From positions 4,254-68,253 of the forward strand of contig CAYMHI010000002.1 of assembly GCA_964390265.1 (NCBI GenBank): a stretch of 64,000 nt of DNA, written 5' to 3'. Below, piece after piece: positions 7,076 through 51,820 of this stretch. Position 1 is the first letter of the stretch; each line of letters begins with the position of its first letter. Made by a program: the position numbers and the translations under genes. This stretch comes from an uncultured Candidatus Saccharibacteria bacterium. Lineage in GTDB: Bacteria > Patescibacteriota > Saccharimonadia > CAILAD01 > BJGX01. The notes below the pieces were generated by a model. That model searched no databases and was not told the DNA's origin. It saw only the letters and a list, made by a program, of their open reading frames with translations.

Positions 7076-7855
7076 TTAATCACCAGTCAAGTTATCTAGT
7101 TTTATTTTTGAACCTGGCGGAATACTATCTGAGTTTATTAGTTTTGCAAGTGTAGGATTATCGGCGGTTAAAACATAGCTTTTTCTATCCACTTTAGTAC
7201 TGGCAAGAAAATCACTGATAGACTTAGCAGTATATGCTATCTCACTTTCTGGATAAGGAGGAGTTAGGGTTGGATAAAACAAATCTTTAACTACTACAAC
7301 GGTATTAGTTTTACCATTACTATAGTTAATCTTACCCCCTACAATTGCGTAGTTTTGAGTATTATAGGGTAAAAAATTAGTTATAGTGTTAGTTGCTGGC
7401 TTAGGGTCGGTGTCTTCTATTTGTAGTTTCTGTTGTGCCTCAGTTAAGTCAGAAAATGGAATGTATTTAGTCTTAAAATTAATCTTAGTATTTTTTAATA
7501 CATCTCCTTTATTAGACACAATTTCTTTTATTGTAATTGTGTATCTTTGATTAATTTTCAAAGTATATAGTTTTAATATTAAAGTTTTTTTATCAACACT
7601 TATTCCACTTACTATAGAGTTGTTATTGCTATCACCCAAAGTAATTTTACTAGCATCAATTTCTTTATTAAAGTTAATATTTAACTGGGTTGATGATGAT
7701 GGGAAGTTTTGGTTAGCTTCAGGTAAAGTATCAACCAGCCTAAATTTTTCAAAAGATTCTCTATTAAAACTGTAAATTACTATTCCTATAAAAATTATAA
7801 CTATAGCCACTATAACCGATATTAAAATATATTTGTTCTCAAATAATTTATTCAT
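7076..7855 (-). CDS. bitopic membrane protein, T4SS-associated (VirB8-like topology?)
   Basis: 259 aa with an N-terminal TM helix (ILISVIVAIVIIFIGIVIY) and an extracytoplasmic domain. Its stop overlaps the start of the upstream hydrolase gene, suggesting the same operon. Confidence 0.4.
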   Translation of the reverse strand: MNKLFENKYILISVIVAIVIIFIGIVIYSFNRESFEKFRLVDTLPEANQNFPSSSTQLNINFNKEIDASKITLGDSNNNSIVSGISVDKKTLILKLYTLKINQRYTITIKEIVSNKGDVLKNTKINFKTKYIPFSDLTEAQQKLQIEDTDPKPATNTITNFLPYNTQNYAIVGGKINYSNGKTNTVVVVKDLFYPTLTPPYPESEIAYTAKSISDFLASTKVDRKSYVLTADNPTLAKLINSDSIPPGSKIKLDNLTGD

Positions 7856-16253: not shown

Positions 16254-18965
16254 CTAATTTTTTATTTTAACTAAGTGTATTGAGTTTGGGTTTGCTAAGT
16301 ACTCTTGGTAGGTAACCATTTGCAGCCCTAGAGAATTGTAGTCAACTCTATAGAACCCAAGCTTGTCGGTTAGTACAGATGTTGGGTGGGTAAGCAATAT
16401 ATCTTGCGCCATCACACCTACGTATTCTGTGTTGCTCCATAGGTACTTAAACTTATAAATTTTTATACCGTTTTCAAGATTATTTACCAACTTAACATTT
16501 CTTTTGAGTCTAATATCTGATCGCGGTACTGGAGCTGGTGTTGGAGGGGGTGCAGGTGGCTGATTAATGCCTTGAGTCGCAAGGTCGAAGTTTGCCCTAC
16601 CCTCGTATACTGCCCTAGCTCTTGCCACTGCAGCTTGAGGGGTTTCACCTGGTCGCGGTGTTGCAGTTTGTGGATCTTTTGCCGCGTGTCTCGCTGTGGC
16701 AGCTCTATGAACCTGTTGATAAGCTGCATATTCTCTTGTTGCTCCTGCAGGCAGAATACCAGCATCAATATCTGATTTAATAGCAGCAGGATCGCTATAC
16801 TGGTCGAGCATTGTGTTATGTAGATTGGTATATGCCCTTGCTTCTTTTACCTGCGCAGGTGTTGTTGGATCTAGTCTCCCCTGTCTCTCCATATCCCACG
16901 CTATAACAGATTCGGCATATGTTTTACCTCCAGCAGCTCTAGCTAAGGCATCGTATTTTTGCCTTTCTGAAGTGCTCATAGGGGCTTTACCATCTAATAT
17001 TGCAGCCCTAGCATCACGTTGTTTTTCGGCATGTCCTTTTTCAATAACACCTTTAGCAACGCCAGCTCTTAAAGTTGGCTTACCATCTCTTCCAGTTTCC
17101 CCTGAAATTCTCTGTTGCTCCTCAAGGTCCATAAGCCCAATATCTTTCTTTTGAGCTTCTTTTACAGAGTCCTCAAGCCTCAAGCCTTTCTGTTTAACAC
17201 CTCTCCCTGCCTTTGTGCCCTTAAGTAAACTAGATTCACTAGCTTTACCAAATCCTTTGGCTTTGAGCTCTGCCAATTTACCCTCCTGAGCACTTTTACT
17301 GACTGCTCCAGTAGCTGCTTTGCCAGCCCTAGTATCTTTGGCGTTGGCTATTGCTTTACTACCCGCCTCTTTGGCCTTGGCCATAATTGCTCCACTCATC
17401 TTGAGGGTTTTGGGTATCAATACAAGCACAATTATAGGTATTAATATTGATATGATTGAACCCATAAAATTGGCAAAACCTCCACTAGGCCCACCAGCGG
17501 TTAGGTCGCCCTCAGCAAACAAGAAAGAGAATACAGCACCCAGTACAAAAAGTAAGTTTACAAGTAAGAACATTATGCTTAGCTTAAGAAAGTACTGCCA
17601 CCATTTTTTAAAGAACTGTTCGGTGTTGGGTAGTACCCAGGCCGCAAAAGCTAGCGGAGCCGATAGTACCAGGCCAAGCAAGAATAGATAACGAGCCACT
17701 ATGTATATAAATGCTATTATCGCAACAACCAAGCCCACTAGCATTGTGAGATTGAATATTGCAAACTTACCCAAAGCCTCTAACATATCTCCACCATTTT
17801 TAATTCTATCTATCTGAGGCACGATAGTTTGCGAAAATGCCTCTGCGGGTGTAGAGCCGGTAACACCCGGAAACGCTCTAAGGATTTGATTAGGTAGCGC
17901 AATGGCCAATATATTGCCAAGGTCTAGCACTGCCTGGCATATCAGTAATGAAAACTGAGTAAGTATTATAGCTACTATTAGCTTAGGCAAAGCCTTTTTG
18001 ACCGTATAATTATCAAGACCAGGTATGGCTACAAAGTTAGCCAGTATAATAAAAAGAAATATTAGTATATAAAAAGAATTTGCTAAAGTAATCATACTGT
18101 TTACAGCATTTTTTAGGTTTTGGCTGTTAGTAAGATCGGGGTTCTCGAGTAACTTGGTAACAGCTGTAATCATCTTTGTTAGAGTGTCGGTTAAGAACTC
18201 GCTAATAGGACAGAGTACAAAACTAAGGGCGCTATCTAGATTGTCCTCGCATCCACCACTTGCCTCCAACAACTCAGCCTGCACCTCTTCTGTAAATGTA
18301 GTCGTATCTAAACCCTCACCATTAAAAGCACTTCCATCCTCCTTAACACAATTTCCAGGATTTGTAACTCCACACCTGTCGCCTGCCGGGTCTGTAAGTG
18401 CATCGTCTATATTACCAACAGCAAAAAGGTGATTAGGGTCTGAGTTGTCAGTTACAGCGCCAGTTGCATCAGATGCATATGCAAATTTTGCACTTTCTTG
18501 CGTTAAATTGAAGTGTAGACAGTTTCTAGATAACAATCCATTATTGTCTGGGTTACAAAATATTGGGTAGCCTGCATTTTGACTAAATTGAGGATTGTAA
18601 AAATAATCCCTACAAGTTGCATTTGGTGTAAGTGTTCCGCATATCAAGGTGGGATAAGTACTACCTATTTGTGAATTCCAGTCTGCTGCGTTTAGTAATG
18701 CCCCAACCGGTGTATTACTGACTATTCCACCTACCCGTGGTATGGCATTAGGATCTACTGTAAGAGTATCAAAAAAACCTAAAATAGAATTCATCAAACT
18801 ACCAACGGCATTTGGTCTTTTGCATTCAATATGCCCACTATCTTGCCATTGGCACAAAACCTCACTAGATAACGCTTGCGCCGGTTTGGCATTCAAAAAC
18901 AATCCGGCAAATACAAACACAAAAGCCAGCAAAGGTAATATTAAAAATCGGGAGAGTTTATTCAT
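16254..18965 (-). CDS. VirB6/TrbL-like polytopic membrane protein with N-terminal Cys-rich secreted domain and C-terminal peptidase S74 intramolecular-chaperone domain
   Basis: 903 aa. Signal peptide MNKLSRFLILPLLAFVFVFAGLFLNAKPAQA. Five to seven TM helices in the middle. Ala/Lys-rich region, then SDIRLKRNVKLV...IKIYKFKY...GVMAQDIL...YRVDYNSLGL matching the S74 consensus (SDxRLKxNI...GxIAQE...VDY). Confidence 0.6.
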   Translation of the reverse strand: MNKLSRFLILPLLAFVFVFAGLFLNAKPAQALSSEVLCQWQDSGHIECKRPNAVGSLMNSILGFFDTLTVDPNAIPRVGGIVSNTPVGALLNAADWNSQIGSTYPTLICGTLTPNATCRDYFYNPQFSQNAGYPIFCNPDNNGLLSRNCLHFNLTQESAKFAYASDATGAVTDNSDPNHLFAVGNIDDALTDPAGDRCGVTNPGNCVKEDGSAFNGEGLDTTTFTEEVQAELLEASGGCEDNLDSALSFVLCPISEFLTDTLTKMITAVTKLLENPDLTNSQNLKNAVNSMITLANSFYILIFLFIILANFVAIPGLDNYTVKKALPKLIVAIILTQFSLLICQAVLDLGNILAIALPNQILRAFPGVTGSTPAEAFSQTIVPQIDRIKNGGDMLEALGKFAIFNLTMLVGLVVAIIAFIYIVARYLFLLGLVLSAPLAFAAWVLPNTEQFFKKWWQYFLKLSIMFLLVNLLFVLGAVFSFLFAEGDLTAGGPSGGFANFMGSIISILIPIIVLVLIPKTLKMSGAIMAKAKEAGSKAIANAKDTRAGKAATGAVSKSAQEGKLAELKAKGFGKASESSLLKGTKAGRGVKQKGLRLEDSVKEAQKKDIGLMDLEEQQRISGETGRDGKPTLRAGVAKGVIEKGHAEKQRDARAAILDGKAPMSTSERQKYDALARAAGGKTYAESVIAWDMERQGRLDPTTPAQVKEARAYTNLHNTMLDQYSDPAAIKSDIDAGILPAGATREYAAYQQVHRAATARHAAKDPQTATPRPGETPQAAVARARAVYEGRANFDLATQGINQPPAPPPTPAPVPRSDIRLKRNVKLVNNLENGIKIYKFKYLWSNTEYVGVMAQDILLTHPTSVLTDKLGFYRVDYNSLGLQMVTYQEYLANPNSIHLVKIKN

Positions 18966-36955: not shown

Positions 36956-37028
36956 TTGACGTCAATATTTTACAACACAACGCTACTTATTACAAGTAAA
37001 ATGCTCTAGATATCTCTAGAGCAAAATA

Positions 37029-37574
37029 TTACAAAAGGTCTGGTATCCCGTGGCGAGCCAAGCTACTGTTCTTGTACCCATGGTAATAACTTACATCGCG
37101 TGCAACACCAAGCCATTCTGGCAACTCAAAGTTAAATATTTCTGGCCGAATGTCTTGCAGCCAGCTTAGTAGCGAGGCCTCATCAAGGGTGTCGTCGGTA
37201 GTGAGTTCTACTAGCCACTCGGCCTCAATAGTAACAAGTCCCCCTAGGTTGTCGTGGTAGCAATCTAGCTCAAGTTTAACGCCATCTGGGCTAGTAAATG
37301 TCCATCGGGTTTTTCTAAGCCCACAAACCGATATTGCGGCTAGCTCATCGTAGAGCCATTCTGGAATAGACGTTTCAGCCTCTGCTCTGGCAACATCACC
37401 ATCTGATTTTTTGGTTGCAGTGTAGTTACCACTGGCATTACGAATACGAAATCCGCCGTTTTGGGTGTCTATATATCGTTGTTCAATTTCTTGAGTGATG
37501 GCATTGTGTATTTGGCTAAAGCCAGTAAAACCTGGTAATACCCACTTTCGTTCTACCTCTATAGTCTGTGGCAA
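37029..37574 (-). CDS. CYTH-domain protein (triphosphate tunnel metalloenzyme family)
   Basis: 181 aa with a TTG start. N-terminal IEVERKWVLP matches the CYTH signature (EIERKFLV). Upstream leader GGCCAACCGCACCUUAAGGAGACACC. Confidence 0.55.
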   Translation of the reverse strand: MPQTIEVERKWVLPGFTGFSQIHNAITQEIEQRYIDTQNGGFRIRNASGNYTATKKSDGDVARAEAETSIPEWLYDELAAISVCGLRKTRWTFTSPDGVKLELDCYHDNLGGLVTIEAEWLVELTTDDTLDEASLLSWLQDIRPEIFNFELPEWLGVARDVSYYHGYKNSSLARHGIPDLL

Positions 37575-37690: not shown

Positions 37691-38248
37691 TTATTTATCA
37701 AACATCTGCCGGGCAATCCCTCCTTGTTCAAGTGCATCGTCGTCAGCTCGGTGTGTGTGGGGCGTATCTACTGGGTAGTGCTTGAGCATCTCTTTGCGTC
37801 CAGTCTTGGCAAATAGCGCTATGCCGTGCTTGCCCATGAAGTAACTCTTGAGCTCGATTGCGGTAAAGCCCACAAATCGACGATCCAAGAAGTGTACGCT
37901 GTACCAGTCTACATACATCATGTCCCAAGTGGAGAGGATGACTAAAACGGCCCTAGACTTGTGGTATTTGGCGAGCATTATATTAACCCATTGTTCAAAT
38001 TTTTCCATCGCCTCTTTTGCCGGTACGCCAGTTATTTTGAGGGCTTCTCTATCTATCCCACTAACGGCGAGCGCCTCAGGGTCGTACTTGTCAGAAATGG
38101 GTTGAAACTCAATGTAGAAAGTTTCTTCTGGGTAGTCGATAAGACTGGCACCAAGAGATAGTAGGGAGTAATCTCCCGGAATAGGGCCATCGGCCTCGAG
38201 ATCTAGCGATATTAGTAGTTCATTGTTCATATCTATATTGTCTTTCAA
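37691..38248 (-). CDS. DEDDh-family 3'-5' exonuclease (DnaQ/RNase T-like)
   Basis: 185 aa. Exo I LISLDLEADGP; Exo III HTHRADDDALEQ (H-x4-D). Start is TTG at 38248, or ATG at 38230. Confidence 0.6.
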   Translation of the reverse strand: MKDNIDMNNELLISLDLEADGPIPGDYSLLSLGASLIDYPEETFYIEFQPISDKYDPEALAVSGIDREALKITGVPAKEAMEKFEQWVNIMLAKYHKSRAVLVILSTWDMMYVDWYSVHFLDRRFVGFTAIELKSYFMGKHGIALFAKTGRKEMLKHYPVDTPHTHRADDDALEQGGIARQMFDK

Positions 38249-38364
38249 TTGTTGTCCTTTCTCAAGGTGCCTCCGAGAGTATTTCTCTCAGCCAAGAAAT
38301 TCAATATCATTGAACATCTTGGTAGAGCCCCAATCCGCACTTTAACAGATTGGGGCAAATGAAG

Positions 38365-38607: not shown

Positions 38608-38742
38608 CTTATCTCCTAGGTAGGTACAAATCTGGGTATCTCCCAGCCAAAACCCTCAAAAATGTTAAGTGCTTTGGTTGGCCCTGCACTCAGCTTCGAG
38701 TGCAGGGAAGAGCTTTTGGACATAGCCCTTTGGTTTTACTAT

Positions 38743-39039
38743 TCACCAGGGATCATCAGCCTTATCCCAAGCGGGATCATCGGGGTCCATCGAGTCAGAA
38801 CGGTCTCGTGGCTTTCTAGTCACCCTACCTCTCATCTCACTAGATTCTTTAATGCGCATCGCACTTTCGTGGTTATAGACTTCAAACTCTTGATCACATA
38901 CGGGACACTTCGCTATGAAAACGCCATCCGTCGTACTTGTTGTATCGTTTCTTTCGATCTCAAGCTCGCTATGGCATTTTGAACAAATTGAGCGCATGGG
39001 CCATACAAGATGATTGAAGCCTTGCCTAAGTATCTTCAC
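38743..39039 (-). CDS. small zinc-ribbon protein
   Basis: 98 aa, GTG start. CSKCHSE...CPVCDQ forms a CxxC...CxxC ribbon. Immediately preceded by hammerhead #2 and an AAGGAGA SD. Confidence 0.45.
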   Translation of the reverse strand: MKILRQGFNHLVWPMRSICSKCHSELEIERNDTTSTTDGVFIAKCPVCDQEFEVYNHESAMRIKESSEMRGRVTRKPRDRSDSMDPDDPAWDKADDPW

Positions 39040-39063
39040 TATTCTCCTTTGTGTATGTACGGG

Positions 39064-39118
39064 TCTGATTTCGTCGTTTTCGACTCTTCAGGGCAAGGGC
39101 ACACTTGCCGATCAGGAG
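39064..39118 (-). ncRNA. type III hammerhead ribozyme (#2)
   Basis: Minus-strand RNA CCUGA-U-C/GGCAAG-UGUGCC-CUUGCC-CUGAAGA-GUCG-AAAA-CGAC-GAAA-UCAGA. Helix I is a 6-bp hairpin; core CUGAAGA; helix II is 4 bp with an AAAA loop; core GAAA; helix III is open (CUGA/UCAG); cleavage site is U-C. Confidence 0.75.
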
Positions 39119-39152
39119 AGGTCTTAAAAGGACCTCCCTTAAACCTTCTGGT

Positions 39153-39341
39153 CTAACAGCGACCATAATCGTGGTCGTAACAAAGAGGTAGATTGGGGTA
39201 GCCACTATCAGCAGGGTAGTTACACCCCTTAACTGAGCATTTGCCATTGTGCTTCAGCTCGTGAACACGAGGATCGTAGAGCTCGTGTATGTTCTTTTTA
39301 TCCGATCCTGCTTTGTTGCTTTCGTCGTCGCCCTGCGCCAT
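39153..39341 (-). CDS. small Cys/His-rich protein
   Basis: 62 aa (…GKCSVKGCNYP…LCYDHDYGRC). SD AAGGAGAUAAG before the ATG; preceded by hammerhead #1. Confidence 0.45.
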   Translation of the reverse strand: MAQGDDESNKAGSDKKNIHELYDPRVHELKHNGKCSVKGCNYPADSGYPNLPLCYDHDYGRC

Positions 39342-39363
39342 CTTATCTCCTTGGTAGGTGCAT

Positions 39364-39419
39364 CTGACTTTCGTCCACCTTTCGGAAGACTCATCAGGGC
39401 CGTCGTTCGGCCGAGTCAG
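39364..39419 (-). ncRNA. type III hammerhead ribozyme (#1)
   Basis: Minus-strand RNA CUGAC-U-C/GGCCG-AACGA-CGGCC-CUGAUGA-GUCUUCC-GAAA-GGUGGAC-GAAA-GUCAG. All conserved core nucleotides present (CUGAUGA, GAAA, U16.1, C17); helices I and II are hairpins; helix III (CUGAC/GUCAG) is open. Confidence 0.8.
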
Positions 39420-39458
39420 GGGAGGTTTTGGTAGGACCTCCCGGAACCTGTTAAAGGA

Positions 39459-39731
39459 CTATTGCAGCTTCCGAATCACTTCCTCTACAGTAAGTCTCAC
39501 AATCTCTTCTAGTTGGGTTCTAGTAATTACTCTTGTCTCTTTGATCGGTTCTTCGTTCTTTGGCCCAAGCCAGATGTGGTCACGAGTATTGGTGCAGTTT
39601 TTACGCCCAGAAGTGTTGCAGGTACCACACCACGTAGGTGGGTATGAGTAGTCTGGGTCCATGCTCTCACGCACAGTGTACCATCCAGTGCGAACTTGCT
39701 CGGTGTGGGTAACGGTGTGATAGCCTTCCAT
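39459..39731 (-). CDS. small hypothetical protein with Cys motif
   Basis: 90 aa (…TWCGTCNTSGRKNC…). Leader GGCCGCACCUCGACAAAGGAGAGAAAUG. Confidence 0.4.
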   Translation of the reverse strand: MEGYHTVTHTEQVRTGWYTVRESMDPDYSYPPTWCGTCNTSGRKNCTNTRDHIWLGPKNEEPIKETRVITRTQLEEIVRLTVEEVIRKLQ

Positions 39732-40181
39732 TTCTCTCCTTTGTCGAGGTGCGGCCTGGGAATCTCCCAGCCGAAGCGTTCGTATCTATACAAGTGCTTG
39801 GGTTGGGAGGGAGCCGGAGTTATTTCTCGGCTCCCTCGGTGAATGTTTCGCCTCTTTCAGTCCTCGTCTAGAAGATCCAGGTCAAAACCAGGTACTCGAG
39901 GTAGCTGATGAAACAGCAGGCCAACAAGATCGAGGCGGTTACAATCTGGTGGCGAGTGATATGAGTCACGGGGCTCTCCTTTGTTGAGGGTCTGTTTCGA
40001 GAAGTTAGTAATCCTACTTCATTCGGCTTTCCTTGCGGTTACGCATATTCACACCCATCAGAGCATTACAGTTTGGGCAGGTGACTACTGCTTCTTCATA
40101 TGATACGAGGAAGGTGATAATGTCTTCCTCTCTGCTGTGACCAGGATCGGGATCGAATCGCCTGGTGCTGGTTGCAGGGCG

Positions 40182-40289
40182 TCACCGAATAGGGTCGTTG
40201 ACGTGATCTACCTCAATTTCTGAGAGGCAAGTTGGGCAAGTGTGTAGCTTTAGACACTTGCTTCCATTTCGTTGTTGGACGATTCTCAT
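40182..40289 (-). CDS. 35-aa zinc-ribbon micro-protein
   Basis: Hand-translated (below the track's length cutoff): MRIVQQRNGSKCLKLHTCPTCLSEIEVDHVNDPIR. SD AAGGAA; lies directly 3' of hammerhead #3. Confidence 0.35.
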   Translation of the reverse strand: MRIVQQRNGSKCLKLHTCPTCLSEIEVDHVNDPIR

Positions 40290-40311
40290 GTTGTTCCTTT
40301 TTAGGTACGGG

Positions 40312-40375
40312 TCTGATTTCGTCGTTTTCGACTCTTCAGGGCAAGTACACACTTGCCGATCAGGGGGAGGTTTTG
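40312..40375 (-). ncRNA. type III hammerhead ribozyme (#3)
   Basis: Near-identical to #2: CCCCUGA-U-C/GGCAAG-UGUGUA-CUUGCC-CUGAAGA-GUCG-AAAA-CGAC-GAAA-UCAGACC. Confidence 0.75.
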
Positions 40376-40402
40376 TAAGGACCTCCCAGAACCTTTCTCG
40401 AT

Positions 40403-41023
40403 CTACTCGAGACTAGCCACATCCTTCAGGATTCGCTGCAACACCCGTTCGGCCTTGAGGTCGATGTTGGGCTCTGCAGCAAAGACGGTGTAGCGGGGAT
40501 GGGCACTCCACACCTCTCGAGTTGCCAGCTCAATCTCGGCAGCCTCCTCGAGTGACTCCATGCGCTCAGCGTTACCTTGCTTGCCGTAGCTTGCAGGGTT
40601 GCCGATAGCCAGAGACTCGAGATGGTACACCGAGTGGTAGCGCTGCAGAGTAGCCTCGAGGTTGAGTCCGTAGGTAGCAGCAAACTTAGTTGCGCCACCA
40701 GGGGTGTAGGCCGCTCCATCGAGCATTCCTCGGTCGAGCACCAGCATCTTCTTGCCAGCCTCTTGTGCCTCGTGGACCCAGAAGCTTTCAAGCCGCTGCT
40801 GAAGGTCGAGTATGGCACCCTGGAAGTTGTACCTCCAGTGGTCGCTGTACTCTACCTCGCGCCCCGGAACCGGGTATCCCCCCGAGAGCAGCACGGTGGC
40901 TGCTTCGGGTACGAACGCTGCATTGGGCAACGCTGCTCTCAGGTACTCTAGCACGGTGCTTTTACCGGCGCAGGGGCCGCCAGTCAGCACCAGCATGGGG
41001 ATGGTAGCAAGGATGGTGGTCAT
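40403..41023 (-). CDS. P-loop nucleotide/polynucleotide kinase-like NTPase
   Basis: 206 aa with very GC3-rich codons. Walker A LVLTGGPCAGKSTVLEYL, resembling dephospho-CoA kinase and phage polynucleotide-kinase P-loops. Confidence 0.55.
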   Translation of the reverse strand: MTTILATIPMLVLTGGPCAGKSTVLEYLRAALPNAAFVPEAATVLLSGGYPVPGREVEYSDHWRYNFQGAILDLQQRLESFWVHEAQEAGKKMLVLDRGMLDGAAYTPGGATKFAATYGLNLEATLQRYHSVYHLESLAIGNPASYGKQGNAERMESLEEAAEIELATREVWSAHPRYTVFAAEPNIDLKAERVLQRILKDVASLE

Positions 41024-41311
41024 ATTTCCTCCAGGGTAATTCCGTCCGGACTATCCGGCTCGGCTACCTGGCAGTGATCACTTTTTTTGCCAGGGTACCA
41101 AGCCGGATTTTACCTAGAGTTTTTCACTTATCTTTGCCTAGCCTTTATTATGTGGTGGCGCTCGGTGGTATATCTAGTCAATTTATTTTGAGTCAAGGTT
41201 CTTTAACTTTCGCCCTGCCGTTACAGTTGTGGGCTCATCAGGACTGGTACTCACCAGTCGAGTTAGTGGGAGCTTTTGGCAGGAGCTCCCGAAAACCTGT
41301 GTGTGAGCTGG

Positions 41312-41563
41312 TTAGCTCCGGCGCCAGTCGATGTCTTTGCCGGGCTTGGCCAGCTTGTGGCCCTCCTCTCGTAGAGCCTCAGCGACCTGCTTCATCATCG
41401 GGCGGGTCATTTTCAGCTCTGGCTTGAGCTTCTTGCCGCAGCCCTTGCAGTTGCCAGCTTGGCCGAGCAGAGCCTTGCGGATGCCCTCGCGAGTAGCTCG
41501 ATCAGGCCGGTTGCGGTGGTTGCACTTGCTGCAGATGATGTAGTAGGGGTGCCAGACAGCCAT
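41312..41563 (-). CDS. small basic zinc-ribbon protein
   Basis: 83 aa; CSKCNHRN...CKGCGKK (CxxC...CxxC); GC-rich; first gene after the island promoter. Confidence 0.45.
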   Translation of the reverse strand: MAVWHPYYIICSKCNHRNRPDRATREGIRKALLGQAGNCKGCGKKLKPELKMTRPMMKQVAEALREEGHKLAKPGKDIDWRRS

Positions 41564-41608: not shown

Positions 41609-41637
41609 GCCGAAAACAATTTTACCTTAAATAACAC
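41609..41637 (-). promoter_or_regulatory. sigma70-like promoter for the minus-strand island operon
   Basis: On the minus strand: TTGACT, 17-nt spacer, TAAAAT. Confidence 0.4.
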
Positions 41638-41745
41638 AAAAAGTCAATGTATAAATAGTCAAAATAATAGATAACAGATAAGAAAAGTAATAGAAACTGT
41701 CGAAAAGCCATCGACAAAAAGTGTATAAAGTGTATAATTAAACCT

Positions 41746-50001: not shown

Positions 50002-50239
50002 ACTTGGCGATACGGTGACCAGGGTAAAACCAATTGTCGTGTCGACACTTTGACAAAGCAAGGATCATATATAAGTAAACAACAATCATGTTGACTGTTG
50101 TGCTGCATAGACCGGTTTACAAATAAATGTTAGACCGGCGCATGCAGTACAACAGCAGTAAACAAAAAAGATAATACGCTTTTTTGTATGGTAGCCCAAA
50201 CCAATTAAGCTACCGTTGCCCCAGGAGGGGTATATCGAC

Positions 50240-51820
50240 ATGACCAGCAACGACACCCGTACCAGCGCGCAGAAGCGCCAGGACACCATCAACGAGCGCA
50301 AGGCCGAGGCCGAGCGCCTGGGCATGAGCTACACCGACTACGTCAAGTCCCTCAAGGCCCAGAAGCGCAAGCCCGGCAAGAAGAAGACCGGCACGGCTCC
50401 GGCCGCGCAGGAAGACAGCGTCGAGGAGACCCGAAGGGCCATCCGAGGTGCCAAGGGCCAGACCGGTTCGACCGTGGCCGAGCAGGCAACGGCTGCGCTC
50501 ACGCACATCCACGACGACGACAGCATGAGCTGGAAGGACGACGCCCACAAGGGCGAGGCCATCCTGAAGCTCATGTCCGGCGACGAAGAGGTGCAGCTGG
50601 CGGGTCTGAGGATGTACGAGACCAGCCTGCGATACACGGAGGCGGCACGCATCAAGGACGAGCTCATCGAGGGTGGCATCGACGATGACGTCGCCGAAAC
50701 CATTCGCTTCAAGATGTGCAACCCGCACGCCGAAGTTCGCGAGTGGGTCAGCGAGGTAGTGTTGCCCAAGATCAAGTCGGGTGAATGGAGCACGGTCCCC
50801 AAGAAGGACTTTGCTACCACCAACCCGACGAGTGGCCCCAGCCAGAGCCCCGCTGAGATCCGTGAGGAGCTCAACAAGGCACTCGAGCAGATGCGGAACC
50901 ACCCGTTCCGAAGCGCCATCGAGGCGCTCATCGTCGAGCAGGCTGAGGCCAAGGGCGGCAAGCACGCGAAGTGGGTCATCCAGGTTCTCAATGACGAGAG
51001 CGACCCGTTGCATCGTGCCAAGTCCATCCGGGCAGCAAAAGGTGTGTTCTTGAGCATTGGTCACCAGATTGCCGAACCGTTGGTGCCGCTCGACATCGCT
51101 CAGCTCGAGGCCGACCGCAAGGTCATCCTGGGCGACGTGAACGCGAGCAAGCTGACGGGCTGGGTGGCTGAGAAGATCAGCGACCCGGGCGATCTGAAGC
51201 ACATGCAGAACCGTGCTTCCCTGAGGAAGGCCCTTGCCATCGCCCATGGAGTGCTGGGCAGGTACATCGAGACCGCCGCAGTGGTGGCCAAGGTACTCGA
51301 GACCATCGACCCGTGGTTCAGCTACGGCTGGGATGCGGAACTCGATGCGATCGAGCAGCGCGATGCCGAGCGCACAGCCAACCAGGCGAATCCGTACGTG
51401 CCCTGGAAGGTCGAGCTCATCGACGAAGCGCTGGCGGCTTACAAGGCCGACCTCGAAGACGGCGGGAGCGCGCTGCTTGCTCTGTGTGGCAACACCAACA
51501 AGCTGCACGGTCTGCTCAAGGCGATCGATGTGTTTCGACGCGTCGTGACCGAAACCGGACAGACCCTGTTCGAGAGCCACGAGTTGCAGATGCAGTTCGA
51601 GGCGCTTCTCGGTGGCGACAAGGCCAAGGCGAGCAACTCCAAGCCGAGTGATGGCGCGCCCACCCGGCGTTCCAGCACCTCCGAGGAGAAGCGAGCCAAG
51701 GCCGAGCGCAACCGGAAGAACCGGGAAGCCCGGGCCGAGGCCGACAAGGCCAAGGCCGCCGCCAACCCCGAGCGCAAGCGCGGGTACGAGCAGGTCGGGG
51801 GCCGCAAGAAGAAGAGTTAA
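50240..51820 (+). CDS. high-GC hypothetical protein with Lys/Arg-rich termini (horizontally acquired?)
   Basis: 526 aa from ATG 50240 (MTSNDTRTSAQKRQ...). SD CAGGAGGGG. Pronounced GC3 codon bias across the gene, unlike the flanking genes. Followed by hairpins at 51830-51955. The antisense 456-aa ORF is rejected. Confidence 0.55.
   Translation: MTSNDTRTSAQKRQDTINERKAEAERLGMSYTDYVKSLKAQKRKPGKKKTGTAPAAQEDSVEETRRAIRGAKGQTGSTVAEQATAALTHIHDDDSMSWKDDAHKGEAILKLMSGDEEVQLAGLRMYETSLRYTEAARIKDELIEGGIDDDVAETIRFKMCNPHAEVREWVSEVVLPKIKSGEWSTVPKKDFATTNPTSGPSQSPAEIREELNKALEQMRNHPFRSAIEALIVEQAEAKGGKHAKWVIQVLNDESDPLHRAKSIRAAKGVFLSIGHQIAEPLVPLDIAQLEADRKVILGDVNASKLTGWVAEKISDPGDLKHMQNRASLRKALAIAHGVLGRYIETAAVVAKVLETIDPWFSYGWDAELDAIEQRDAERTANQANPYVPWKVELIDEALAAYKADLEDGGSALLALCGNTNKLHGLLKAIDVFRRVVTETGQTLFESHELQMQFEALLGGDKAKASNSKPSDGAPTRRSSTSEEKRAKAERNRKNREARAEADKAKAAANPERKRGYEQVGGRKKKS

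What the first reader, a model, noticed from the sequence alone, without database searches (positions are those of the whole stretch)
39064..40375. Three canonical type-III hammerhead ribozymes in the intercistronic spacers of a GC-rich minus-strand operon
Reading the minus strand, 39364-39419 encodes CUGAC-U-C/GGCCG-AACGA-CGGCC-CUGAUGA-GUCUUCC-GAAA-GGUGGAC-GAAA-GUCAG. This has every invariant hammerhead core nucleotide (CUGANGA, GAAA, the A15.1-U16.1 pair, C17) in the correct order, with helices I and II closed by loops and helix III open, which is type III. Two further copies (39064-39118 and 40312-40375, near-identical to each other) have the same architecture with CUGAAGA, a GUCG-AAAA-CGAC helix II and GGCAAG/CUUGCC helix I. 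Each sits 10-25 nt upstream of the Shine-Dalgarno of a small zinc-ribbon gene and immediately downstream of a GGGAGGUCC...ACCUCCC hairpin. Self-cleavage would therefore chop a polycistronic transcript into monocistronic mRNAs with defined 5' ends. Clustered hammerheads are known from phage and prophage transcripts but are rare in reduced genomes, and none is expected in a CPR-like chromosome.
Basis: seen in the sequence. Interest (0 to 1): 0.85.

Follow-up and report, generated by a model that had tools for sequence, protein, structure and literature searches.

The report
Hammerhead ribozymes punctuating a Saccharibacteria operon
A ten-gene operon in a Saccharibacteria (CPR) chromosome carries four, not three, intact self-cleaving hammerhead RNAs between its genes, a known way of cutting a long mRNA into single-gene pieces, here joined to a conserved upstream pseudoknot or hairpin and interchangeable with a second, uncharacterised RNA structure.

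Summary
All have a complete catalytic core. A strict descriptor finds only these four in 64 kb, and 299 of 300 shuffles give none. Rfam's RF00008 stays below its threshold (25 bits against 48.5), but a model built from relatives scores them 45-68 bits, with the next window hit at 9.6. Thirty-two distinct homologues from Saccharibacteria genomes show compensatory changes in 14 of 16 base pairs.

The operon is a syntenic chromosomal locus, not a recognisable prophage. In relatives nearly every cistron is preceded by such a module.

Each hammerhead follows a 7-bp hairpin that probably forms an H-type pseudoknot with an upstream AGG. Three other spacers carry a different conserved two-hairpin motif ("type-2") with no Rfam match. 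Type-2 replaces the hammerhead in front of orthologous genes.

The most likely function is co-transcriptional self-cleavage into separately stable mRNAs. This is inferred, not shown. Gene-flanking hammerhead clusters were described in 2011, so this is a new member of a known kind. The type-2 motif is the lead worth testing.

The parts
41619..41647 (-). Promoter-like site TTGACT-17-TAAAAT at the head of the operon, in the AT-rich divergent region shared with the TrmB-family gene
   Evidence: 10 of 12 consensus positions; sequence
41312..41563 (-). First cistron, an 83-aa Cys-rich (CxxC..CxxC) protein
   Evidence: only sub-threshold zinc-finger hits
41268..41299 (-). Pseudoknot/hairpin D: S1 CAGG(41299-41296)/CCUG(41283-41280), S2 GGGAGCU/AGCUCCC, A-rich L3 CCAAA
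   Evidence: S2 is G-C-swapped relative to the other three copies, and the S1 fourth pair is C-G instead of A-U
41203..41266 (-). C17 is 41260, so cleavage falls at 41260|41259. Helix I is GACUGGU/ACCAGUC and helix II is GCCC..GGGC with a 15-nt loop
   Evidence: R1 65.7 bits
41024..41202 (-). Long leader of the ATPase gene: conserved AU-rich stretch, conserved CATAAT, then a near-invariant ~70-nt hairpin element
   Evidence: alignment A10 of five genomes; TAGATA-18-CATAAT
40403..41023 (-). AAA_28 P-loop ATPase, 206 aa
   Evidence: PF13521, 1e-18; homologues
40365..40395 (-). Pseudoknot/hairpin C: S1 AAGG/CCUU, S2 GGGAGGU/ACCUCCC, L3 ACAAA
40312..40364 (-). Hammerhead C (type III). C17 is 40358, so cleavage falls at 40358|40357
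   Evidence: RF00008 25 bits; R1 68.5 bits
40014..40289 (-). Zinc-ribbon gene of 92 codons (stop included) with an in-frame TGA at 40184-40182
   Evidence: The L003 orthologue (2797-2522) has Trp at that codon
39868..39969 (-). 33-aa hydrophobic peptide gene with no processing module in front of it
   Evidence: orthologue visible in the L003 sequence
39809..39835 (-). Plain GC-rich hairpin GGGAGCCG..CGGCUCCC with no U-tract
39752..39807 (-). Type-2 spacer motif, copy 1. It consists of ACC + P1/P2 long hairpin + an abutting P3 hairpin CUGGGA..UCCCAG. It sits upstream of the 90-aa gene, whose L003 orthologue is preceded by a hammerhead
   Evidence: R2 61.1 bits
39459..39731 (-). 90-aa gene
   Evidence: orthologue in L003
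39420..39449 (-). Pseudoknot/hairpin B: S1 AGG/CCU (3 bp only), S2 GGGAGGU/ACCUCCC
39364..39419 (-). Hammerhead B (type III). C17 is 39413, so cleavage falls at 39413|39412. Helix I is 5 bp. Helix II is 7 bp with one U.U mismatch and a GAAA loop
   Evidence: no RF00008 hit; R1 44.9 bits; close variants in L004 and L017
39153..39341 (-). 62-aa Cys-rich gene
39116..39147 (-). Pseudoknot/hairpin A: S1 AAGG/CCUU, S2 GGGAGGU/ACCUCUC with one G.U pair
39064..39116 (-). Hammerhead A (type III). C17 is 39110, so cleavage falls at 39110|39109
   Evidence: RF00008 25 bits; R1 64.2 bits
38743..39039 (-). 98-aa zinc-ribbon gene with a weak Lar-like restriction-alleviation match
   Evidence: phrog_6422, 3.8e-5
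38628..38707 (-). Hairpin CCCUGCACUC..GAGUGCAGGG (38707-38682) followed by type-2 motif copy 2 (38682-38628)
   Evidence: R2 63.5 bits
38365..38607 (-). 80-aa gene (MRDYEAEARAAE..)
   Evidence: orthologues in L003, L007, L011 and L004
38270..38356 (-). Hairpin GCCCCAAUC..GAUUGGGGC (38356-38327) followed by type-2 motif copy 3 (38327-38270). P1 covaries to CCAAGA/UCUUGG. It sits upstream of the exonuclease gene, which in L005 is preceded by a hammerhead
   Evidence: R2 57.2 bits
37691..38248 (-). DEDDh 3'-5' exonuclease gene
   Evidence: PADLOC PDLC00753, 7e-43
37029..37574 (-). CYTH-domain gene, last cistron before the first terminator-like site
37002..37023 (-). First terminator-like hairpin plus U-tract downstream of the promoter on this strand

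Best explanation
The four elements are functional type-III hammerhead ribozymes embedded in the spacers of one roughly 4.6-kb polycistronic transcript, running from about 41620 to about 37000 on the minus strand.

Proposed mechanism:
1. As the RNA is made, each hammerhead folds and cleaves 3' of C17.
2. The upstream fragment ends in a stable hairpin or H-type pseudoknot, about 6 nt and a 2',3'-cyclic phosphate.
3. The downstream fragment starts with a 5'-OH guanosine that is already paired in helix I. The rest of the ribozyme follows, then a conserved CACCU motif, the Shine-Dalgarno sequence and the gene.
4. The operon is thus converted into separate mRNAs with fixed, structured ends, whose stability and translation no longer depend on their neighbours.

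The module of 3' hairpin/pseudoknot + cleaving element + standard leader travels with individual genes. Gene order is shuffled between relatives while the modules stay.

Shown here: sequence, fold, covariation, conservation, position and strand. Inferred: cleavage itself, the end chemistry, and the effects on stability and translation.
For: Core and topology:
- All core nucleotides and the type-III topology are present in four copies.
- The chance expectation is about 0.003 per window.
- Model R1 finds 36 copies (32 distinct), all in Saccharibacteria-type loci, and none in about 55 control loci. With filters off it finds exactly four in the window, at 45-68 bits against 9.6 or less for everything else.

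Covariation:
- 94.1% of cells are paired against 60.6% in shuffles.
- 14 of 16 pairs carry compensatory changes.
- Controls with one strand slid give 46% or less.
- A15.1-U16.1 is invariant and G10.1-C11.1 holds in 31 of 32.

Position:
- All copies are on the coding strand in spacers, and helix III ends 11-14 nt before the SD for copies A-C.
- One promoter-like site heads the operon, and the first terminator-like sites downstream on that strand lie at 37023-37002 and 36619-36595.
- Relatives show the same rule. L004 has a hammerhead before each of four successive genes. L019 has five in 3.5 kb, one before each gene.

Other support:
- Loop 1 (UGNGUA) and the A-rich loop 2 are conserved in most copies, as expected for fast natural hammerheads with loop-loop contacts.
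- Comparable clusters cleaved at every site in vitro (PMC3088659).
- Predicted 3' products keep helix I at the extreme 5' end.
Against: - No experimental or transcript data are available for these RNAs.
- Rfam RF00008 does not reach its gathering score.
- Nearest-neighbour folding of the spacers prefers pairing of the 3' strand of helix III with the core CUGA rather than with the 5' CUGA. Some fraction could therefore misfold.
- Hammerhead D is followed by a 180-nt leader with a conserved -10-like box. The ATPase may therefore also be transcribed on its own.
- In Firmicutes a 5'-OH end can promote decay by RNase J1 (glmS precedent, my own knowledge). The effect on stability could therefore be negative rather than protective.
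Confidence: 0.8

Rival explanations
1. Cleavage is regulated rather than constitutive. The conserved pseudoknot that abuts helix III (0-2 nt away), the upstream AAGGU and the downstream CACCU would form alternative pairings, or bind a ligand, a protein or the terminating ribosome. These would decide whether the hammerhead folds, so the modules would set the ratio of full-length to processed RNA or tune translation.
For: - The pseudoknot loop sequence CCUNNCAAA and the flank AGG are conserved well beyond what a protective hairpin needs, and the fourth S1 pair covaries.
- The structure starts 1-13 nt after the upstream stop codon, as read from the sequences. A terminating ribosome would therefore have to melt it.
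- CACCU can pair with the SD AGG in predicted 3' products.
- The core CUGA competes with the 5' strand of helix III.
Against: - No known riboswitch family matches.
- Several modules in relatives have only a plain hairpin, or none, yet keep an intact hammerhead (L019 327/712, L017 8067, L118 13613).
- Independent covariation events for S1 are few.
Confidence: 0.1
2. Pairs of same-strand hammerheads excise gene-sized RNA segments. Their 5'-OH and 2',3'-cyclic phosphate ends are then rejoined by an RtcB-type ligase or by the ribozyme itself, giving circular or spliced RNAs rather than simple linear mRNAs.
For: - Copies A and C are 95% identical over 63 nt and flank a 1.25-kb segment.
- The end chemistry of hammerhead products suits RtcB (my own knowledge).
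- The possibility was raised for bacterial clusters (PMC3088659).
Against: - The authors of PMC3088659 looked for such products and found none.
- Nothing in the window points to a ligase coupled to the operon.
- Each segment carries its own SD and start codon, which fits linear mRNAs.
Confidence: 0.05
3. The hammerhead-like sequences are decaying relics of a mobile element and no longer cleave. The spacers act only as structured insulators or as recombination repeats.
For: - The region is richer in GC than its surroundings.
- The genes are small, poorly annotated and reshuffled between genomes.
- One gene carries an in-frame stop.
Against: - Every invariant core position is intact in 32 distinct copies from genomes whose ATPase is only 44-85% identical.
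- The helices change by compensatory substitutions.
- This pattern needs selection on the folded, active ribozyme.
Confidence: 0.03

Closest known systems
Type-III hammerhead ribozyme (Rfam RF00008, clan CL00010)
   Same: Identical catalytic core, three-helix junction, open helix III and closed helices I and II. The helices covary.
   Different: Scores are below the Rfam gathering threshold (25-32.5 bits against 48.5). The loops differ from the viroid and satellite seeds. Some relatives carry an extra U after A9.
Clustered, gene-flanking hammerheads of bacterial prophage-like regions (Agrobacterium tumefaciens ardA cluster, Clostridium scindens, Azorhizobium caulinodans; Perreault et al. 2011, PMC3088659)
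   Same: Several same-strand hammerheads bracket single genes or short gene blocks. The genes include small ones linked to restriction evasion: ardA there, a weak Lar-like match here. The same processing model was proposed, and there every site cleaved in vitro.
   Different: Here the locus is a syntenic chromosomal operon of Saccharibacteria between TrmB/phosphomannomutase and FemAB genes. No integrase or phage genes were seen. The DNA pattern, blastn and ATPase-based searches of viral and phage collections recovered no copy of the module. All copies are type III. Each is coupled to a conserved upstream pseudoknot or hairpin and alternates with a non-hammerhead motif.
RiboJ-type synthetic ribozyme insulators (sTRSV hammerhead plus hairpin placed before an RBS; my own knowledge, not checked here)
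   Same: A hammerhead placed just upstream of the SD removes the upstream RNA context and leaves a fixed, structured 5' leader.
   Different: The element here is natural and repeated along an operon. It has an additional structure on the 5' side that stays with the upstream product.
RNase III processing sites between the early genes of phage T7, and tRNA punctuation of mitochondrial transcripts (my own knowledge)
   Same: The logic is the same: structured spacers are cut so that a polycistronic RNA becomes gene-sized RNAs, and the upstream product keeps a 3' hairpin.
   Different: Those systems need a protein or RNP nuclease. Here the spacer would cut itself. The type-2 motif may be the nuclease-dependent counterpart.
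Ribosome termination structure (stable structure just after stop codons; PMC7518266, abstract only)
   Same: A stable structure lies 1-13 nt downstream of the upstream stop codon, as read from the sequences.
   Different: Here it has a conserved loop and a probable pseudoknot, and it is always followed by a cleaving or type-2 element.

Membership tests
Hammerhead ribozyme, type III | Invariant core C3 U4 G5 A6 N7 G8 A9, G12 A13 A14, and H17 (not G) at the cleavage site | tested here: met
   All four window copies and 32 distinct relatives. H17 is C in all window copies.
Hammerhead ribozyme, type III | Three helices around the core, supported by covariation; A15.1-U16.1 and 10.1-11.1 paired next to the core | tested here: met
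   94.1% paired against 60.6% in shuffles; 14 of 16 pairs with compensatory changes; U-A in 32 of 32; G-C in 31 of 32.
Hammerhead ribozyme, type III | Topology: helices I and II closed by loops, helix III open | tested here: met
Hammerhead ribozyme, type III | Score at or above the Rfam RF00008 gathering threshold | tested here: not met
   Two copies score 25.0 bits against 48.5. Copies B and D give no hit: B lay inside the low-threshold search, while D was covered only by the gathering-threshold search. This is a property of the curated model, because a family-specific model scores the copies 45-68 bits.
Hammerhead ribozyme, type III | Loop 1-loop 2 tertiary contact needed for fast cleavage at physiological Mg2+ | tested here: inconclusive
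   Loop 1 UGNGUA and an A-rich loop 2 recur in most copies.
Hammerhead ribozyme, type III | Site-specific self-cleavage giving 2',3'-cyclic phosphate and 5'-OH ends | not testable with these tools
   Needs in vitro transcription or end mapping.
Prophage-associated clustered hammerheads (Perreault 2011) | Several hammerheads on one strand flanking individual genes | tested here: met
   Four in 2.2 kb in the window; up to five in 3.5 kb in L019.
Prophage-associated clustered hammerheads (Perreault 2011) | Prophage or integrase neighbourhood | tested here: not met
   The locus is syntenic and chromosomal in at least six Saccharibacteria genomes. Only weak PHROG matches were found. The DNA pattern, blastn and ATPase-based searches of viral and phage collections recovered no copy of the module.
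Intrinsic terminator (for the upstream hairpin) | GC-rich hairpin followed by a U-tract | tested here: not met
   The hairpins are followed by CUGAUC or CCAACC. The scan places no terminator-like site on any of the spacer hairpins.
H-type pseudoknot (for the upstream hairpin) | A second stem between the 5' flank and the hairpin loop, kept by covariation | tested here: inconclusive
   AGG/CCU is invariant. The fourth pair is A-U 11, C-G 5, U-A 1, G-U 1 and unpaired 5, and 0 of 10000 permutations reach this. Most C-G cases are orthologous, so independent events are few. A nested alternative pairing also exists.
Known self-cleaving classes other than hammerhead (twister, twister-sister, pistol, hatchet, HDV-like, hairpin, glmS, VS, hovlinc), for the type-2 motif | A match to the family covariance model | tested here: not met
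   No such hit at E up to 10 in window 38700-40700 or in L003 1-3000. Together these hold five complete type-2 copies and part of a sixth.

The most novel reading that the evidence does not exclude
The type-2 spacer motif may be a functional replacement for the hammerhead, that is, a new RNA-cleavage element and possibly a new small self-cleaving ribozyme class.

The motif consists of an invariant A-CC, a 13-bp P1/P2 hairpin, and an abutting hairpin CUGGGA..UCCCAG. The window holds three copies: 39752-39807, 38628-38682 and 38270-38327.

It occupies exactly the hammerhead's slot, between a 3' hairpin or pseudoknot and the CACCU-SD leader. It swaps with the hammerhead in front of orthologous genes in three independent places: the 90-aa gene, the exonuclease gene, and the spacer after the ATPase. 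Its helices covary and it matches no Rfam family.

The evidence equally allows a site for a host nuclease or a binding protein. The lack of conserved internal-loop nucleotides argues against a ribozyme.
Probability: 0.15. Interest if true: 0.85.

Novelty: new member of a known kind. Interest (0 to 1): 0.5.

Why it matters
Natural hammerheads have been catalogued in bacteria for years, but their function there is still argued largely from gene context. This locus is a clean case for three reasons.
- It is a conserved chromosomal operon in Saccharibacteria, some of which can now be cultured and genetically manipulated (PMC10633639, title and abstract only).
- Almost every cistron carries a ribozyme module.
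- Relatives provide natural swap experiments: hammerhead against type-2 motif, pseudoknot against plain hairpin.

The locus makes three questions directly testable:
- Do bacterial hammerheads really punctuate operons?
- What does the structure left on the upstream product do?
- Is the type-2 motif a new cleaving RNA?

It also shows that the Rfam hammerhead model misses this lineage, so annotated CPR genomes probably undercount ribozymes.

Tried and rejected
- Rfam at gathering threshold over the whole window gave only tRNAs. At low threshold it gave sub-threshold RF00008 hits for two copies and nothing for the type-2 motif.
- The loose core pattern CTGANGA..GAAA alone is not significant: 6 matches against 3.0 expected. 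The full descriptor was needed.
- Viral and phage collections gave no PK-hammerhead pattern, no type-2 pattern and no blastn match. The 18 viral loci with distant ATPase homologues carry no hammerhead by the descriptor, and the seven of them searched with R1 and R2 gave no match. I therefore dropped the prophage reading.
- I considered a closing helix between the upstream AAGGU and the downstream CACCU. I rejected it in favour of the pseudoknot because the covarying flank base pairs with the loop and not with the downstream motif (reading of the sequences).
- I considered a stop-codon read-through or frameshift role for the pseudoknot. I rejected it because the spacing to the stop codon varies from 1 to 13 nt and no frame continues into the ribozyme (sequence reading).
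- I considered recoding of the in-frame TGA. I rejected it because long table-11 ORFs fill the window and the orthologue has TGG there.
- MAFFT alignments A5 and A6 could not keep the register of pseudoknot stem 1, so the tool-based pair count was replaced by my own anchored count.
- Pfam, NCBIfam, PHROGs and PADLOC give little for the small proteins.
- ATPase homologues in Paceibacterota, Parcubacteria and Moranbacteria MAGs have no hammerhead nearby.
- Literature searches found no paper combining hammerhead with Saccharibacteria, and none among the listed papers combining it with the CPR terms. Weinberg 2015 (PMC4509812) is not held.
Full report
WHAT IS THERE. From 5' to 3' each has:
- the 5' strand of helix III ending in U16.1;
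- C17;
- a closed helix I;
- CUGA(A/U)GA;
- a closed helix II starting G10.1-C11.1;
- GAAA, whose last A pairs with U16.1;
- the 3' strand of helix III.

A scan for the loose core pattern turned up a fourth copy at 41203-41266, in the spacer between the first small gene and the ATPase gene. A strict descriptor of my own finds these four and nothing else in 64 kb. Of 300 block shuffles, 299 gave no hit and one gave a single hit. The predicted cleavage sites are 39110|39109, 39413|39412, 40358|40357 and 41260|41259.

DATABASE MODEL VERSUS FAMILY MODEL. Rfam reports only tRNAs at gathering thresholds. At low threshold RF00008 gives 25.0 bits (gathering score 48.5) for the two near-identical copies and nothing for 39364-39419. 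It is a limitation of the model, as the following shows. A covariance model built from 25 relatives (A3, R1) scores the four window copies 68.5, 65.7, 64.2 and 44.9 bits. With all filters off the next best hit in the window is 9.6 bits.

RELATIVES AND COVARIATION.
- An exact-pattern scan of 185,579 species genomes with hairpin + hammerhead returned six loci, all Candidatus Saccharibacteria or Saccharimonadia MAGs. The same pattern found nothing in 2.9 million viral contigs.
- Homologues of the operon's ATPase brought in further loci.
- R1 finds 36 hammerheads (32 distinct) in these loci and none in about 55 control loci that hold more distant ATPase homologues.
- On the resulting alignment 94.1% of cells are standard pairs, against 60.6 +/- 1.5% when partners are shuffled.
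- 173 cells carry a change on both sides, against 52.9 in shuffles.
- 14 of 16 pairs have compensatory changes.
- Sliding one strand by 1-3 columns drops pairing to 46% or less.
- A15.1-U16.1 never varies, and G10.1-C11.1 holds in 31 of 32.
- Every core nucleotide is intact in all copies.

This is the signature of a ribozyme under selection, not of a relic.

CONTEXT. The window is a bacterial chromosome. It has tRNAs and table-11 ORFs throughout. The only closely related genome records are Saccharibacteria MAGs.

The operon starts at a promoter-like TTGACT-17-TAAAAT (41647-41619), divergent from a TrmB-family gene. The first terminator-like sites downstream on its strand are at 37023-37002 and 36619-36595, and none lies on a spacer hairpin. 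It encodes, in order:
1. an 83-aa Cys-rich protein;
2. an AAA_28 ATPase;
3. a zinc-ribbon gene with an in-frame TGA;
4. a 33-aa hydrophobic peptide;
5. a 90-aa protein;
6. a 62-aa protein;
7. a 98-aa protein, which has a weak Lar-like match;
8. an 80-aa protein;
9. a DEDDh exonuclease;
10. a CYTH protein.

The same locus, between TrmB/phosphomannomutase and FemAB genes, occurs in several Saccharibacteria genomes. It is therefore chromosomal and syntenic, not a recognisable prophage.

The set and order of the small genes differ between genomes, but the modules stay with the genes. In L004 the order is small gene, 80-aa gene, exonuclease, ATPase, with a hammerhead in front of each of the last three and one after the ATPase. 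In L019 five hammerheads precede five successive genes in 3.5 kb. ATPase homologues in Paceibacterota, Parcubacteria and Moranbacteria MAGs have none.

THE UPSTREAM HAIRPIN IS PROBABLY A PSEUDOKNOT. All four window hammerheads follow GGGAG[G/C]U-CCUNNCAAA-A[C/G]CUCCC.

The 7-bp stem covaries across relatives. Variants include:
- GGGAGCU/AGCUCCC
- GGGGCGU/ACGCCCC
- GGGCGG/CCGCCC
- GGGAGAG/CUCUCCC
- GAGGGGU/ACCCCUC
- CGGAUGU/ACAUCCG

The first loop bases, CCU(N), are complementary to a conserved (N)AGG lying 3-5 nt upstream of the stem. With 23 modules anchored on AGG and CCU, the fourth pair is A-U 11, C-G 5, U-A 1, G-U 1 and unpaired 5. None of 10,000 permutations reaches this. In three of the five unpaired cases the stem is extended on the other side instead (AGGUA/UACCU, AGGC/GCCU).

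The remaining loop (NCAAA) is A-rich. That is what a loop crossing the minor groove of a short G-C stem usually looks like; this is my own knowledge of H-type pseudoknots.

Two caveats apply. The three core pairs never vary, and most C-G cases are orthologous, so independent events are few. A nested alternative pairing also exists. I therefore rate the pseudoknot as probable, not established. Its 3' strand abuts helix III (0-2 nt away), and it begins 1-13 nt after the upstream stop codon. There is no U-tract, so it is not an intrinsic terminator.

A SECOND KIND OF SPACER. Three other spacers of the operon lack a hammerhead: 39870-39732, 38745-38608 and 38364-38249. Each has a GC-rich hairpin followed by a conserved two-hairpin motif, which I call type-2. 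It consists of:
- an invariant A-CC;
- a long imperfect hairpin, with P1 CCAAAG/UUUUGG plus P2;
- directly abutting it, a hairpin CUG(G/A)GA(G)..(C)UC(C/U)CAG;
- then the same CACCU..AGGAG leader found after the hammerheads.

A model built from nine copies finds 12 strong sense-strand copies (55-67 bits) and weaker variants, only in these operons. 93% of cells pair, against 87.1% in shuffles (0 of 500 shuffles reach this). Seven pairs carry double changes, against 3.4 in shuffles. Slid controls give 53% or less. Further compensatory variants are CCAGAG/CUCUGG and CCGGGA/UCCCGG in L011. No Rfam family matches.

The two modules are interchangeable:
- The 90-aa gene has type-2 in the window but a hammerhead in L003.
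- The exonuclease gene has type-2 in the window and L007 but a hammerhead in L005.
- The spacer after the ATPase has a hammerhead in most genomes but a weak (20-bit) type-2-like variant in L010 and L011.

That argues for an equivalent role, most simply RNA cleavage. The motif has no conserved internal loop. I therefore think a nuclease or protein site is more likely than a new ribozyme, and I put the ribozyme reading at about 0.15.

MECHANISM. Steps 1 to 3 and step 5 are inferences. Step 4 is observed apart from the recombination suggestion.
1. One transcript runs from about 41620 to about 37000.
2. Each hammerhead cleaves after C17. This rests on the intact core, on covariation, and on published activity of comparable clusters, all of which cleaved in vitro (PMC3088659).
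3. The upstream product ends in the pseudoknot or hairpin plus about 6 nt and a cyclic phosphate. That is a plausible block to 3' exonucleases. The downstream product begins with a 5'-OH G that is already paired in helix I and keeps the folded ribozyme remnant, followed by CACCU, the SD and the gene.
4. Gene order changes between genomes while the modules stay with the genes, so each gene plus its module behaves as a unit. The near-identical modules (95% over 63 nt) may themselves promote this shuffling by recombination.
5. CACCU can pair weakly with the SD AGG and may tune translation.

Nearest-neighbour folding prefers pairing of the helix III 3' strand with the core CUGA. This could be a misfold. 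After cleavage it could also be a refold that makes the cut irreversible.

COMPARISON AND NOVELTY. The fold is a textbook type-III hammerhead. The arrangement, several hammerheads flanking single genes, was described in 2011 for prophage-like regions, with the same processing hypothesis. I found no paper that combines hammerhead with Saccharibacteria, and none among the listed papers that combines it with the CPR terms.

What is new here:
- the lineage;
- the chromosomal, syntenic setting;
- the near-complete punctuation of an operon;
- the coupled pseudoknot;
- the alternation with an unclassified motif.

I file the finding as a new member of a known kind with interest 0.5. The type-2 motif is the piece that could raise that score.

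Noticed in passing
window 41203-41266 (-): A fourth type-III hammerhead with its own upstream pseudoknot/hairpin (41268-41299).
   Followed up: yes
window 39752-39807, 38628-38682, 38270-38327 (-); L003 404-459, 32-89, 2842-2896, 1148-1201 (-); L006 460-517; L007 4537-4598, 6072-6129; L017 5604-5658, 6333-6387: A conserved two-hairpin 'type-2' spacer motif with no Rfam match. It takes the place of the hammerhead in front of orthologous genes. It could be a nuclease site or a new ribozyme.
   Followed up: partly
window 41024-41202 (-); L003 2220-2416 (-); L013 9809-10000; L007 4869-5046; L017 6813-6985: The ATPase leader holds a conserved CATAAT box after TTGACTAGATA, then an almost invariant ~70-nt hairpin element (AUCCGGCUUGGUACCCUGGC..UGCCAGGUAGCCGAGCCGGAUAGUCCGGACGG). 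The flanks vary between genomes. There are no compensatory changes and no Rfam hit. This may be an internal promoter plus a regulatory leader.
   Followed up: partly
window 40182-40184 within gene 40014-40289 (-): An in-frame TGA sits at codon 36 of a 91-aa zinc-ribbon gene. The L003 orthologue (2797-2522) has Trp (TGG) there. The likely readings are a nonsense mutation or a leaky stop, not a code change.
   Followed up: partly
L118 13613-13664 (-), same as L002 2914-2965 (+): A solitary hammerhead without a pseudoknot lies between a 572-aa gene and groES-groEL in a Saccharimonadia MAG. Hammerheads in this lineage are therefore not confined to the ATPase operon.
   Followed up: no
L001 6166-6222; L004 7170-7227; L118 about 7545-7610: Hammerhead variants with an extra U between A9 and helix II (CUGAYGA-U-GACC..GGUC-GAAA) occur in the same operon family.
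   Followed up: no
window 37691-38248 (-) and 37029-37574 (-): The operon's exonuclease matches a PADLOC defence-effector exonuclease model (PDLC00753, 7e-43) and sits next to a CYTH-domain gene. The operon may have a nucleic-acid or nucleotide-signalling role related to defence or anti-defence.
   Followed up: no
window 40397-40411 (-) and orthologous sites in L003, L005, L006, L007, L017: The ATPase stop codon lies in the loop of a small conserved hairpin (CUCGA-GUAGA-UCGAG), just before the pseudoknot.
   Followed up: no
window 50216-51820 (+): A 534-aa ORF without any Pfam match lies in a 60% GC block, far above the window's 33-51% elsewhere. It may be acquired DNA.
   Followed up: partly
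window 16254-18965 (-): A 903-aa protein with a TrbL/VirB6-like domain, that is, a type IV secretion component.
   Followed up: no
window spacers, 8-14 nt upstream of each SD (e.g. 39357-39353, 40303-40300, 39748-39744): A conserved (C)ACCU motif follows both hammerhead and type-2 modules. It resembles the start of the 16S anti-SD and pairs with the SD AGG in predicted folds of cleavage products.
   Followed up: partly
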